A DNA stretch of 64,000 bases from the NCBI RefSeq assembly GCF_032191835.1, contig NC_083225.1, positions 182,218,001-182,282,000 on the forward strand. Direction: 5' to 3'. This DNA comes from Heteronotia binoei. Taxonomy: Eukaryota. Below, piece after piece: positions 15,001-18,000 of the stretch. The number at the start of each line of letters is the position of its first letter. The first letter of the stretch is position 1. The position numbers are program-made.

Positions 15001-18000
15001 AAACAGAACTGATGTCAAGGGCCTGCCACCAAATTCCTCCTGGGGGTTGCCAGCTGTAGTATGTCTCTAACCCATTATGTTTTACTACCCAGAGAATAAT
15101 CTTTAAGTGCTCTTCCATGAACCCCCCTGAGATCCTAAAGAAAATTTATCTCACCACAGAAGGAGATATTCATGTGCAATATAAATATACTGCAGCGGTA
15201 CCTTAGCTGTAGAAACAATTTAATTGTAGATTGTTTCCTGTGAAATTAATGAAAGTTAATGATTGCTGTCTAATGGCTTAAGTCCCAAAGACATCGTTTT
15301 TGTTGTTTGGAATGTGTTTTTAAAACAATAAAAAACCCCAAACTATAGCTTTGTAAAAGAACCATACTGGTGTGAGTTATTCAATGTGCAACAGTGCAGT
15401 GGAGAATCTAGTAAAAGAAACAAGTTCCCCTCACCTCTGGATTTTTTAGTACTGTGACATAACCTCCCACTCAGTAAAACTAATAGGGCTCCCAGATGTT
15501 CTCTTTGAAGAAGACAAGGCCTCTTTTTTATCCTCTTTTGGGCTCATTAAAAAAAAAAAAACCTGATTAAAATGTCCTCTTTTGAGGTTAGGAATATTCC
15601 TAGTTAGTAGCAATGGCCACAGCTTAAACAGTAGGTCTCTTTCAAAGGAGATTTGTCATAATGATCACTTGCTTGAAGCAGTTGGGAAATGTGCCCTCTA
15701 TTTTGCTTTTCAAAAATAAATGGTATAACCCTATAATGATGATTCAGGTTGGCAGCTGTCTTGGCCTTAAACTTTGTCCTATAACAATTAGACATTTTTA
15801 CCACTAGGTCGGGGTGGGGAACCTCCATCCCGAGGGCCGTATGCGGCCCTCGAGGTCTCTTGGTGTGGGCCCTTGGGGATTGCTGGGCTGAACTGAGCCA
15901 TGTGGCAGCCTCCCTGGGGCCTGGCTGGCCAGCAAGGATCGTGGGGCCCAGCTGCGCTGTGCAGCAGCCTCCCCAGGGCCAGGCAGGGATCACAGGGCCC
16001 AAATGTACTGTGCGGCAGCCTCCCTGGGGCCTGGCTGGCCGGTCAGAATTGCTGCGGGGCCTGGAAAAGTTACTGTCACAGTTCAGTTTGCACTTGATTA
16101 TCCCAGATGGAGTGGCCTAATATGCTAATATTAGGGGATGTGGTCTAATATGCTACTGAGTCCTGCTGGGCTTTTTCTACAAAAAAGCCCTGGACCTAGG
16201 CATTTGCCTACGCAGCGGGCTGGGTGTGTATGTGTATATATATATGTGTGTGTGCGTGTGTGTATACACACACACACATATTGGCCACTGTGTGACACAG
16301 AGTGTTGGACTGGATGGGCCACTGGCCTGATCTAACATGGCTTCTCTTATGTTCTTATGTGACACAGAGTGTTGGACTGGATGGGCCACTGGCCTGATCC
16401 AACATGGCTTCTCTTATGTTATGTGACACAGAGTGTTGGACTGGATGGGCTATTGGCCTGATCCAACATGGCTTCTCTTATGTTCTTATGTGACACAGAG
16501 TGTTGGACCGGATGGGCCACTGGCCTGATCCAACATGGCTTCTCTTATGTTCTTATGTGACACAGAGTGTTGGACTGGATGGGCCATTGGCCTGATCCAA
16601 CATGGCTTCTCTTATGTTCTTATGTGACACAGAGTGTCGGACCGGATGGGCCACTGGCCTGATCCAACATGGCTTCTCTTATGTTCTTATGTGACACAGA
16701 GTGTGGGACTGGATGGGCTATTGGCCTGATCCAACATGGCTTCTCTTATGTTCTTATGTGACACAGAGTGTCGGACCGGATGGGCCACTGGCCTGATCCA
16801 ACATGGCTTCTCTTATGTTCTTATGTGACACAGAGTGTTGGACTGGATGGGCCATTGGCCTGATCCAACATGGCTTCTCTTATGTTCTTATGTGACACAG
16901 AGTGTTGGACTGGATGGGCCATTGGCCTGATCCAACATGGCTTCTCTTATGTTCTTACGTGTGCCAGATTAGGCTTTCCCCGCATGACTTCAAACAGAAA
17001 AACAATTATTTGCATTAATTTTGCTGGCGTGAATCGTTCTCTCTCGGCGGAGCGCTGTTTTTAGAGCTGATAATTTTTTCATGGCCCGGGGAATGATGTT
17101 ATAACTATCCATATGGCCCTTGGCAGAAAAAAGGTTCCCTACCCCTGCACTAGCTAAATATTTGAAAAAATACTTAATAAGTAAGAGGTGTAGGTTTCCC
17201 CCAAGCTGGTTGCAGGGGGACAACATGCCCTTAAATTAGGCTTCCCAACCCTCCTGCTCTGGCGGGAGTCTCCTGGGTTTGCAGCCTCATCTCCCGGTCT
17301 TCAAGAAGTGGGAAGCGGGGTGGGGTGGGGGGAGGGGGGGGAGAACATACCTGTAGGCTTCATTATAGAGCTCCTGAGCCGTTTGTAAAATGTCTGCTCC
17401 TTTAAGGCTGGGCAGGGAGCAGGAAGGGCTTGGGAGAACAGCCCCGCCCTTTCTTTTGCTTTCGCTTTCACAAGAGTTCTCCGGAAGAAGATCTGGTAAG
17501 TGTGTGTGTGTGTGTGTGTGAGAGAGAGGGGGCAGGGGATTCCCTGGTTTGGAGGCCCTCCCCCCTTTTAGAAAGCGTGGGGGGGGGAGGGAAATGTCTA
17601 CTGGGCATTCTATTATTCTCTATGGAGAACGATTCCCATAGGGAATAATAGGGAATTCATCCGTTGGTATTGGGGGCTCTGGGGGGGCTATTTTTTGAGG
17701 TAGAGGCACAAAATTTTTAGTATAACATCTAGTGCCTCTCCCCAAAATACCCCCCCAAGTTTCAAAACGATTGGACCAGAGGGTCCAATTCTATGAGCCC
17801 CAAAAGATGGTGCCCCTATACTTCATTATTTCCTATGGAAGAAAGGAATTTTAAAAGGTGTGCTGTCCCTTTAAATGTGATGGCCAGAACTCCCTTGGAG
17901 TTCAATTATGCTTGTCACATCCTTGTTCTTGGCTCCACCCCCAATGTCTCCTGGCTCTACCCCCAAAGTCTCCTGGCTCCGCCCCCAAAGTCCCCAGATT

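What the first reader, a model, noticed from the sequence alone, without database searches (positions are those of the whole stretch)
16222..16957. Second, independent CR1-tail array with the same unit boundary, nested in a hAT element
Seen: 10 copies joined at the same junction (TTCTTAT|GTGACACAG) as the array at 2144, in the opposite orientation and an unrelated host. It sits in the GT-repeat of a hAT element whose sister copy (6474-6560) is uninterrupted at that point. A two-copy version ends the long CR1 at 31936-32065. Inference: three loci in 32 kb imply either an active CR1 master with a multimeric tail or reproducible RT slippage at TG microhomology. Either would be a dispersed LINE-seeded 67-bp satellite. 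Microsatellite seeding by squamate CR1 is established; I do not recall this longer unit being described.
Basis: partly seen in the sequence, partly recalled or inferred. Interest (0 to 1): 0.65.

Follow-up and report, generated by a model that had tools for sequence, protein, structure and literature searches.

The report
Gecko CR1 tail tandem arrays
The last 67 bases of a gecko jumping gene (a CR1 LINE) are repeated head-to-tail at three places in this window, a clear but fairly ordinary example of a mobile element seeding short tandem repeats.

Summary
Window 16291-16957 (+) holds 10 head-to-tail copies of a 67-bp unit. That unit is the 3' end of a CR1 LINE: a predicted hairpin plus an octamer-like tail. 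A 15-unit array lies at 2144-3138 (-), and a two-unit tail ends a 5'-truncated 1.4-kb CR1 at 31936-32061 (-). Seven single-copy tails also occur in the window.

The exact junction 16-mer joins 8 of 9 junctions in array A and 10 of 14 in array B, and occurs nowhere else. Array A sits inside a hAT-like element with inverted ends and an 8-bp target duplication. A sister copy of that element is uninterrupted at the insertion point. The genome is a gecko's; the nearest gene match is Heteronotia binoei.

Best reading: a tail-to-internal junction arose once at the RNA or insertion level. It was spread by retrotransposition of CR1 copies with at least two tail modules. The arrays then grew in place by unequal exchange.

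The reasons:
- The junction holds no flank bases.
- A loop variant (32C) occurs in all 3 arrays and 0 of 7 single tails.
- Private variants recur within each array.

Nothing genome-wide could be tested. Transposon-derived tandem repeats are well known, including SINE-derived satellites in squamates, so this is a new variant of a known kind. Interest is modest.

The parts
16291..16957 (+). Array A: 10 head-to-tail units (nine of 67 bp, one of 64 bp) of the CR1 3'-terminal module. It ends at the natural CR1 3' end, TTCTTA, followed by host sequence CGTGTGCCAG.
   Evidence: TRF; unit split; junction count
16222..16290 (+). (GT)n(AT)n(GT)n(CA)n tract plus TTGGCCACTG. This is the remnant of the young CR1 subfamily's short 3' UTR merged with the host's short GT tract. 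The 5' junction cannot be placed to the base.
   Evidence: Comparison with the upstream sequence of the tails at 52751 and 32061 and with the sister copy; inverted GT/CA arms
15810..17147 (.). Host: hAT-like non-autonomous DNA element, about 604 bp without the insert. Inverted ends at 15811-15824 and 17132-17145; 8-bp flanking repeat at 15802-15809 and 17148-17155 (7 of 8 identical).
   Evidence: sequence read
6338..6705 (+). Sister copy of the host element, continuous across the insertion point (6527-6535). Its right end abuts another CR1 tail at 6705-6769.
   Evidence: blastn, alignment, sequence
2144..3138 (-). Array B: 15 units. B01 (3070-3138) is old and diverged, and B02 is intermediate. 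B03-B14 match the young consensus. B15 (2144-2206) is a chimera of a young 5' half and an old 3' half.
3139..3176 (-). About 38 bp of old long-UTR CR1 sequence directly upstream (in sense) of array B. This is the remnant of a 5'-truncated older CR1 copy that hosts the array.
31936..32061 (-). Array C: a two-unit tail (59 + 67 bp) ending a 5'-truncated CR1. The junction lacks one octamer.
32062..33312 (-). Body of the CR1 copy that carries tail C. It comprises an ORF2 fragment with the reverse transcriptase domain (residues 569-982 of relative P0030) and about 33 bp of UTR with a short GT/AT tract.
   Evidence: Pfam RVT_1 E=1.6e-28; relatives; tblastn
52304..52817 (+). Young-subfamily CR1 copy with a single tail module (52751-52817) after a long (GT)n(AT)n tract. 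It is the monomer comparator.
47282..47764 (+). Older long-UTR CR1 copy with a single tail module. It shows that the roughly 130-bp 'SINE-like' stretch upstream of the module is CR1 3' UTR.
4443..4509 (-). Single tail module of an old long-UTR CR1 fragment
6705..6769 (-). Single tail module of an old long-UTR CR1 fragment
9888..9954 (+). Single tail module of an old long-UTR CR1 fragment
44656..44722 (+). Single tail module of an old long-UTR CR1 fragment
62117..62181 (-). Single, 3'-degraded tail module of an old long-UTR CR1 fragment

Best explanation
The 67-bp unit is the 3'-terminal module of a gecko CR1 LINE. It comprises a predicted hairpin plus an octamer-like tail, and in the young subfamily it makes up almost the whole 3' UTR.

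I propose three steps:
1. A tail-to-internal junction (element end TTCTTA joined to TGTGACACAG, 67 bp upstream) arose once or a few times. It arose at the RNA/cDNA or insertion level, either by a reverse-transcriptase jump back to the 3' octamer or by a 67-bp truncated copy landing at the end of an active copy.
2. CR1 transcripts carrying two or more modules were then retrotransposed, usually heavily 5'-truncated. This placed multimeric tails in unrelated sites: array A in a hAT-like element, array C on a 1.4-kb CR1, and the interior of array B inside an older CR1 tail.
3. After insertion the arrays changed copy number in place, by unequal exchange or replication slippage.

Shown: the anatomy, the shared junction, the empty sister site, and the variant patterns. 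Inferred: the order of events, the RNA-level origin, and the role of the hairpin and octamer as the enzyme's recognition site.
For: 1. CR1 identity. All 10 tail-bearing loci align as CR1 3' ends. Copy C continues into an RVT_1 domain (1 of 7 ORFs scanned). Its relatives are bird and turtle endonuclease+RT proteins, and it covers residues 569-982 of P0030.

2. The junction holds no flank bases, and its right side is the element's natural 3' end. Single copies end TTCTTA or TTCTTAT before unrelated flanks. The same exact 16-mer joins 8 of 9 junctions in A and 10 of 14 in B, in loci with unrelated flanks and opposite strands.

3. Array A is bounded as a LINE insertion. A CR1 UTR remnant lies on its 5' side and the exact tail end on its 3' side, and the sister copy shows the empty site.

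4. Column 32 is C in 13 of 27 array units, spread over all 3 arrays, and in 0 of 7 single tails. Counted by locus, that is 3 of 3 against 0 of 7, Fisher p=0.008. In each array the 5'-most unit has C, and the last fully young unit has T or A.

5. Units of A and of the interior of B are as close to each other (2.32 differences per 59 columns) as units within A (2.09) or within B (2.24). They are equally close to the young monomer at 52751 (2.25-2.4).

6. Growth in place. Variants seen in no other array recur in several units of the same array:
- A: 21C in A04, A06 and A08; 16C in A06 and A08; 30T in A03 and A07.
- B: B09, B11 and B13 are identical; B06 and B12 are identical; 35A is in B07 and B10; 56T is in B03 and B04.

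7. The CR1 family is known to carry a 3' hairpin plus an 8-bp microsatellite, thought to be the RT recognition site (PMC8665684 and PMC4316615, passages). A hairpin is predicted here, with column 32 in its loop.
Against: - The sample is three arrays in one 64-kb window.
- No full-length or intact CR1 with a multimeric tail is present. Copy C is 5'-truncated, and the other young copy (52751) has a single module.
- 32C is also present in the old unit B01, so it may be an old polymorphism rather than a marker of common descent.
- Gene conversion between arrays could mimic shared variants.
- The two-unit periodicity in A is only suggestive. Lag-1 minus lag-2 is 0.82, reached by 1345 of 20000 shuffles. 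The interior of B shows none (8691 of 20000).
- Junction length is not uniform: 67, 64, 59 and 69 bp.
- The predicted RNA hairpin is no more stable than shuffled sequence (z = -1.27; 24 of 200 shuffles fold at least as well).
- Only 1 of 13 predicted pairs shows a compensatory change, and the covariation term is +0.59.
- Array B's layered ages (old B01, intermediate B02, young interior, chimeric B15) fit repeated events at one site at least as well as a single insertion.
Confidence: 0.5

Rival explanations
1. Fresh reverse-transcriptase slippage at every insertion. Each array was made in one retrotransposition event from an ordinary single-module CR1 RNA. The enzyme repeatedly jumped from just upstream of the hairpin back to the 3' octamer, using UG microhomology.
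For: The junction lies at the RNA's 3' end and shares TG with the unit start. Junction variants of 59 and 64 bp fall at other TTATG positions of the tail, as register slips would. Template jumping and tail slippage by LINE reverse transcriptases is established for R2 and UnaL2 (recalled, not from a call).
Against: Units made from one template would be identical at birth. Yet all three arrays contain both 32C and 32T units, while 0 of 7 single tails have 32C. TG occurs at nine places in the unit, so two bases of microhomology do not explain one fixed boundary. Private variants shared by several units show that at least part of each array was made later at the DNA level.
Confidence: 0.15
2. Serial self-targeted insertion. 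New, extremely 5'-truncated CR1 copies land again and again in or at the tail of an existing copy, because the RNA's tail can pair with the nicked old tail. The tandem is built unit by unit.
For: Array B has age layers. B01 has 11 differences from the consensus, B02 has 5, and the interior units have 0-3. The last unit is a chimera whose 3' half carries the old variants 36T and 45G, which it shares with B01. This looks like a young insertion primed inside an old tail. Tail-to-internal tandems of non-LTR elements made by consecutive insertion are documented in Drosophila (PMC5932611, abstract and section 7). Vassetzky et al. also invoke insertion into the same locus (PMC10702118, Discussion).
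Against: Independent insertions should truncate at different points, yet 18 of 23 junctions in A and B are the identical 16-mer. Array A shows no age gradient beyond its first two units, and it carries private variants repeated in alternate units, which points to block duplication. Ten to fourteen hits at one site would need a very strong site preference.
Confidence: 0.15
3. Independent DNA-level tandem duplication after insertion. Each locus started with a normal single tail. Each was duplicated by replication slippage or unequal exchange, and the shared boundary is coincidence or local sequence bias.
For: In-place duplication certainly happened (shared private variants). Squamate SINE-derived satellites are explained this way by their describers (PMC10702118, Discussion).
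Against: A DNA-level duplication has no reason to end exactly at the element's last base. The flanks after TTCTTA differ between loci (CGTGTG, AAACAGG, and the old flank CAGGTC) and offer no shared repeat. Two unrelated loci share the exact 16-mer junction. 32C is confined to arrays.
Confidence: 0.1
4. Assembly artefact: collapsed or mis-joined reads created or inflated the arrays.
For: Tandem repeats are error-prone in assemblies, and I have no reads to check.
Against: 20 of 27 array units are distinct sequences. The array edges join cleanly to unique flanks. The sister element gives a clean empty site for array A. The window has no N.
Confidence: 0.03

Closest known systems
SINE-derived satellites (sSat1-3) of squamates, Vassetzky, Kosushkin and Ryskov 2023 (PMC10702118; Background, Results parts 1-2 and Discussion read)
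   Same: Both are short tandem arrays (a few to hundreds of units of 70-290 nt) made from part of a retroposon in lizard and snake genomes. In both, terminal units run on into the parent element. Both show alternating unit subvariants, and many loci hold only a few copies. Geckos are especially rich in them.
   Different: Those units come from Squam1, Squam2 or Squam3 SINEs. Squam3's LINE-derived end is L2-like, with (TAAA)n or (CTT)n tails (PMC7983390, passages). Here the parent is the CR1 LINE itself. There is no tRNA head, and copy C runs into the RT coding region. The unit is exactly the 3'-terminal module, flush with the element's end. The snake sSat3 unit is also 67 nt, but it maps to the SINE head and body, so the equal length is coincidence. 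Their supplementary alignments could not be seen.
Tail-to-internal tandems of non-LTR retrotransposons, McGurk and Barbash 2018 (PMC5932611; abstract and section 7 read)
   Same: In both, the 3' end of one copy is joined head-to-tail to an internal point of the next copy of the same LINE. Such dimers are proposed as seeds for satellite arrays.
   Different: In Drosophila the internal points are many, and each junction is taken as a separate insertion. Here one junction dominates two unrelated arrays, and the repeated piece is only the terminal 67 bp.
Microsatellite seeding by squamate CR1/CR1-L3 LINEs (PMC6050309, passages read; PMC3157835, listing only)
   Same: In both, the 3' end of a CR1-type LINE carries repeats that are spread through the genome by retrotransposition.
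   Different: Seeding concerns 4-5-bp motifs such as AATAG. Here the repeated unit is 67 bp and includes the whole predicted hairpin.
Satellites derived from LINE 3' regions: chicken HinfI repeat with CR1 3' UTR and partial ORF2, cetacean common satellite from the L1 3' part, Drosophila 18HT from HeT-A (review PMC9659126, passages and Table 1 seen)
   Same: In all of them the tandem repeat unit is drawn from the 3' non-coding part of a LINE.
   Different: Those are large, localised satellites whose units contain more than the terminal module. None is described there as multimeric tails attached to dispersed LINE copies.

Membership tests
CR1 LINE 3' end | Contiguity with a CR1-type ORF2 (apurinic-type endonuclease plus reverse transcriptase) | tested here: met
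   The RVT_1 domain lies directly upstream of tail C. The copy covers residues 569-982 of P0030, a 982-aa protein with PF03372, PF14529 and PF00078. The closest named relatives are bird and turtle RT proteins. Assignment to the CR1 clade rests on those relatives and the tail structure. No LINE phylogeny was built.
CR1 LINE 3' end | 3' hairpin upstream of the tail (PMC8665684, PMC4316615) | tested here: inconclusive
   A hairpin is predicted: an 8-bp outer stem and a 5-bp inner stem, 13 pairs in all, with a 3-nt loop. Its stability is not above shuffles (z = -1.27). Only 1 of 13 pairs shows a compensatory change.
CR1 LINE 3' end | Octamer microsatellite at the very 3' end (ATTCTRTG in birds) | tested here: inconclusive
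   The tail reads CTTCTCTTATGTTCTTA(TG), about two copies of a TTCTTATG-like motif. The 59- and 67-bp junction types differ by exactly one such octamer. The motif resembles the avian one quoted but is not identical to it.
SINE-derived satellite (sSat) of squamates | Unit derived from a Squam1, Squam2 or Squam3 SINE | tested here: not met
   The roughly 130-bp stretch that looked SINE-like is CR1 3' UTR, because copy 47282-47764 continues upstream into CR1 coding sequence. No SINE consensus was available for direct comparison. Squam3's tails and L2-like end differ.
Microsatellite seeding | Seeded repeat is a 2-6-bp motif at the LINE 3' end | tested here: not met
   The unit is 67 bp.
Tail-to-internal tandem of a non-LTR retrotransposon | 3' terminus of one copy joined in the same orientation to an internal position of the same element | tested here: met
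   The element end TTCTTA is joined to TGTGACACAG, 67 bp upstream of the end, at 18 of 23 junctions in A and B.
Satellite DNA in the classical sense | Long homogeneous arrays, high genomic abundance, heterochromatic location | not testable with these tools
   The arrays here have 2, 10 and 15 units (0.13-1.0 kb). They lie near a gene (TMEM126A-like). No gecko genome was available for a census.
hAT-type DNA element (host of array A) | Terminal inverted repeats and an 8-bp target-site duplication | tested here: met
   The inverted ends are 14 nt and 93% complementary. The flanking 8-mers CACTAGGT and CACTAGCT match at 7 of 8 positions. The element has no transposase, so superfamily membership is inferred from these two features only.

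The most novel reading that the evidence does not exclude
The recognition module of a gecko CR1 behaves as a retrotransposable minisatellite. Copy number would change during reverse transcription itself, as module-level slippage analogous to the octamer slippage at CR1 tails. Tail-only multimers would be re-seeded preferentially into older CR1 tails, as array B suggests. A LINE enzyme would then be directly creating and dispersing a 67-bp satellite family across the genome.
Probability: 0.2. Interest if true: 0.6.

Novelty: new variant of a known kind. Interest (0 to 1): 0.35.

Why it matters
How dispersed mobile elements turn into tandem satellites is still argued. The candidates are post-insertion recombination, double insertion, and enzyme slippage.

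The repeated piece here is exactly the part of the LINE RNA that its reverse transcriptase is thought to recognise. The junction is flush with the RNA's 3' end, and several ages of the structure lie side by side. A genome-wide census in this gecko could therefore separate those mechanisms cleanly.

If multimeric tails are really copied by retrotransposition, microsatellite seeding by CR1 extends to a unit ten times longer. That would give a simple route to dispersed minisatellite families.

The practical consequence is modest. Such arrays are likely hotspots of copy-number variation and of assembly or repeat-masking error near genes.

Tried and rejected
- SINE origin. The roughly 130 bp upstream of six single tails and of array B looked like a SINE body. 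An all-against-all comparison of 3'-anchored 700-bp pieces and tblastn show it is the 3' UTR of an older CR1 subfamily. Rejected.
- Rfam scan of 16100-17100. There were 14 matches, all far below gathering scores (15-36 bits against 40-101). The best of them lie on the GT/AT tract. No known RNA family matches.
- RNA structure as independent support. The single-sequence fold is not significant. The alignment fold shows 1 compensatory pair of 13. It is kept only as a prediction.
- Two-unit higher-order periodicity. It is suggestive in A (1345 of 20000 shuffles reach it) and absent in the interior of B. It is not used as proof.
- Paper search for the sequence itself. Four strings from the unit gave 0 papers.
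- Other paper searches. Searches combining CR1, tandem, satellite, lizard, 67 bp, Anolis, template jumping and Heteronotia gave no description of a CR1-tail array.
- The squamate CR1 preprint (PMC10888918) has 0 occurrences of 'tandem', 'hairpin' or 'satellite'.
- The chicken LL2R preprint was opened because it pairs CR1 with a tandem repeat. There, CR1 only supplies a promoter. Irrelevant.
Dfam and Repbase are not available, and the supplementary files of PMC10702118 were not seen.
- A target-site duplication for the old CR1 copy hosting array B (CAGATCCTTG... upstream, CAGGTCTCCTTG... downstream) is possible. It is too diverged to rely on.
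Full report
**What is there**

The window has no N and 46% G+C.

Tandem Repeats Finder reports three related arrays:
- 16291-16961: period 67, 10.1 copies, 95% matches.
- 2204-3138: period 67, 13.9 copies, 93% matches, opposite strand.
- 31941-32061: period 59, 2.1 copies.

A blastn search with two units gave 47 matches. Outside the two long arrays these fall at eight loci. 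One is the two-unit locus at 31936-32061. The other seven are single copies at 4443, 6705, 9888, 44656, 47710, 52751 and 62129. Two further 14-15-base matches are chance hits.

Cutting the arrays by hand gives:
- Array A, 16291-16957 (+): 10 units.
- Array B, 2144-3138 (-): 15 units.
- Array C, 31936-32061 (-): 2 units.

The exact 16-mer TTCTTATGTGACACAG occurs 8 times on the + strand, all in A (8 of 9 junctions). It occurs 10 times on the - strand, all in B (10 of 14 junctions), and nowhere else. The remaining junctions are variants. One in A is 3 bp shorter (16414). Two are one octamer shorter (2212 in B, 32008 in C). The B01-B02 junction is diverged, and two more junctions in B differ by point changes in the flanking units.

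**What the unit is**

In its sense orientation the unit is the last 67 bp of a CR1 LINE.

At locus C it follows, after about 33 bp, an open frame with a reverse transcriptase domain (RVT_1, E=1.6e-28). This was 1 of 7 frames scanned; two others hit TMEM126 and four hit nothing.

A search with that frame found 4997 proteins at E<=0.001 among 6936 candidates. The named ones at the top come from birds (Mycteria americana, Grus japonensis) and turtles. Many carry the endonuclease families PF03372 and PF14529 together with PF00078. The closest, at 81% identity, is an unnamed 982-aa protein, P0030.

Mapping P0030 back onto the window shows that copy C covers residues 569-982 (33312-32095).

Comparing 700-bp pieces anchored at each 3' end shows two subfamilies:
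- An older subfamily has about 130 bp of UTR before the module. It includes 4443, 6705, 9888, 44656, 47710, 62129 and the remnant upstream of array B.
- A younger subfamily has that UTR replaced by a (GT)n(AT)n tract. It includes 31936, 52751 and array A.

Copy 47282-47764 runs from coding sequence through the long UTR into the module. The long UTR is therefore LINE sequence, not SINE.

The tail reads CTTCTCTTATGTTCTTA(TG), about two copies of a TTCTTATG-like octamer. Single copies end TTCTTA or TTCTTAT before unrelated flanks.

CR1 elements of amniotes are described as ending in a hairpin plus an 8-bp microsatellite, ATTCTRTG in birds. This structure is thought to be the recognition site of their reverse transcriptase (PMC8665684 and PMC4316615, passages).

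A hairpin is predicted here, with an 8-bp outer stem, a 5-bp inner stem and a 3-nt loop. It is no more stable than shuffled sequence (z = -1.27). Only 1 of 13 pairs shows a compensatory change. I treat the hairpin as a prediction supported by family knowledge, not as shown.

Rfam has nothing at gathering level.

**The host of array A**

The array lies in a non-autonomous DNA element at 15810-17147. Its inverted ends are 15811-15824 and 17132-17145, 14 nt and 93% complementary. Its 8-bp flanking repeat is CACTAGGT / CACTAGCT. These are the two hallmarks of hAT elements.

A sister copy aligns on both sides of the array. 16158-16229 matches 6452-6527, and 16964-17136 matches 6535-6705. The sister is continuous where this copy holds about 734 extra bases.

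The 3' edge of the insert is exact: TTCTTA, then host CGTGTGCCAG. The 5' edge is not. Both the host (GTGTGTGTGCGCGC in the sister) and the young CR1 UTR carry GT tracts, so the edge lies somewhere in 16229-16262.

The flanks of A, B and C share nothing except CR1 sequence.

**The organism**

One stop-to-stop frame holding a TMEM126 exon (35641-36057, - strand) was searched on its own. Its best match is TMEM126A-like of the gecko Heteronotia binoei, at 94% identity over the aligned half. Three other geckos match at 71-74%. I take the window to be from that gecko or a close relative, not from a human.

**How the arrays arose: what the variants say**

All variant observations below are from the unit alignment unless another call is named.

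1. The junction contains no flank bases, and its right side is the natural end of the element. A duplication at the DNA level after insertion has no reason to stop there. The three flanks offer no common repeat that could guide one. The junction was therefore made at the RNA, cDNA or insertion stage.

2. TG occurs nine times in the unit. The two bases shared by the octamer and the unit start cannot alone explain why one boundary dominates 18 of 23 junctions in two unrelated loci. Descent from one founding junction explains it simply.

3. Column 32, the middle of the predicted loop, is C in 13 of 27 array units and in 0 of 7 single tails. Every array has both forms, and the 5'-most unit is always C. 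By locus this is 3 of 3 against 0 of 7 (Fisher p=0.008). The caveat is that the old unit B01 also has C, so the variant may be an old polymorphism.

4. Units of A and of the interior of B are as alike between arrays (2.32 differences per 59 columns) as within them (2.09 and 2.24). They are as close to the young single tail at 52751.

5. Variants found in only one array recur in several of its units:
   - In A: 21C in A04, A06 and A08; 16C in A06 and A08; 30T in A03 and A07.
   - In B: B09, B11 and B13 are identical; B06 and B12 are identical; 35A is in B07 and B10; 56T is in B03 and B04.

   The arrays have therefore also grown in place. In A, units two or four apart are more alike than neighbours (1.62 and 1.50 against 2.44 differences). 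A shuffle test is only suggestive (1345 of 20000). The interior of B shows no periodicity.

6. Array B is layered. B01 has 11 differences from the consensus, B02 has 5, and the interior units have 0-3. The last unit has a young 5' half and an old 3' half, which shares 36T and 45G with B01. A young multimer therefore sits inside an older CR1 tail. It got there by insertion primed on the homologous old tail or by conversion. I cannot tell which.

**Explanation and rivals**

My best explanation (confidence 0.5) has three steps. A tail-to-internal junction arose once or a few times. CR1 RNAs with two or more modules were retrotransposed, mostly heavily truncated. The arrays then changed size by unequal exchange.

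The rivals:
- Fresh reverse-transcriptase slippage at each insertion (0.15). The mixed 32C and 32T units argue against it.
- Serial insertion into existing tails (0.15). Array B's layers fit it, and so do Drosophila tail-to-internal tandems (PMC5932611). The uniform truncation point argues against it.
- Independent DNA-level duplication (0.1). The flush junction argues against it.
- Assembly error (0.03).

Template jumping by R2 reverse transcriptase, tail slippage in UnaL2, and Suh's work on CR1 requirements are recalled from memory, not taken from a call.

**Comparison with what is known**

Transposon-derived tandem repeats are a known kind. A review lists satellites drawn from LINE 3' regions: the chicken HinfI repeat with CR1, the cetacean satellite with L1, and 18HT with HeT-A (PMC9659126, passages and Table 1).

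The nearest published case is the set of SINE-derived satellites in 56 squamate genomes (PMC10702118; Background, Results parts 1-2 and Discussion read). It shares several features with the arrays here:
- Units of 70-290 nt.
- Many short loci.
- Alternating subvariants.
- Terminal units that run into the parent element.
- Geckos rich in them.

That study covers Squam1, Squam2 and Squam3 SINEs only. It did not include Heteronotia. It attributes the arrays to unequal recombination and same-site insertion. Squam3's end is L2-like, with (TAAA)n or (CTT)n tails (PMC7983390), so it is not this module.

Microsatellite seeding by squamate CR1 concerns 4-5-bp motifs (PMC6050309).

I found no description of a CR1-tail array. 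Nine keyword searches and a search for four strings of the unit itself (0 papers) found none. These searches cover open-access papers and bioRxiv only. Dfam, Repbase and the supplementary files of the squamate study could not be consulted.

**Verdict**

The feature is a new variant of a known kind: a LINE-tail minisatellite whose unit equals the presumed recognition module and whose junction appears to be inherited through retrotransposition. Interest is modest (0.35).

The claim of a dispersed satellite, and the choice of mechanism, rest on a genome-wide census that I could not run.

Noticed in passing
window 34483-34821 and 35641-36057, - strand: Two frames match Pfam TMEM126 (E=2.9e-15 and 5.6e-24). 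The second is 94% identical to TMEM126A-like of Heteronotia binoei. The CR1 copy with the two-unit tail lies about 1.2 kb downstream on the same strand.
   Followed up: partly
window 2144-2206 and 3070-3138: The first and last units of array B share two substitutions (36T, 45G) that no interior unit has. The last unit is young in its 5' half. The switch point falls within columns 29-35, around the predicted hairpin loop. Whether this is a long target duplication, homology-primed insertion or conversion is unexplained.
   Followed up: partly
window 16224-16281: The tract upstream of array A is (GT)n(AT)n(GT)n followed directly by (CA)n. This forms inverted arms of 14-17 nt at 76-94% complementarity. 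The other two young CR1 copies have only (GT)n(AT)n. It may be a trace of how the 5' junction formed.
   Followed up: no
window 5844-5993: TRF reports another tandem repeat with period 67 (2.2 copies, 89% matches). Its consensus is unrelated to the CR1 unit, so the equal period looks coincidental.
   Followed up: no
window 17528-17974, 14522-14980 (inverted), 54488-54870: Three copies (81-86% identity) of another interspersed repeat just right of the host element. Each ends in a 22-bp tandem motif (TRF rows at 17930-17992 and 54826-54870).
   Followed up: no
window 50572-51061 (-) and 55092-55608 (+): Two further CR1-like RT C-terminal fragments (35-56% identity to P0030) that do not carry this 67-bp tail. 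They probably belong to other, older CR1 lineages.
   Followed up: no
window 18001-20000: G+C rises to 62%, against 39-53% in the other 2-kb windows apart from 44001-46000 (55%). It is possibly a CpG island or first exon. It was not examined.
   Followed up: no
window 4247-4314: A perfect 21-bp tandem repeat (3.2 copies) lies in sequence next to the single CR1 tail at 4443-4509. It was not examined.
   Followed up: no
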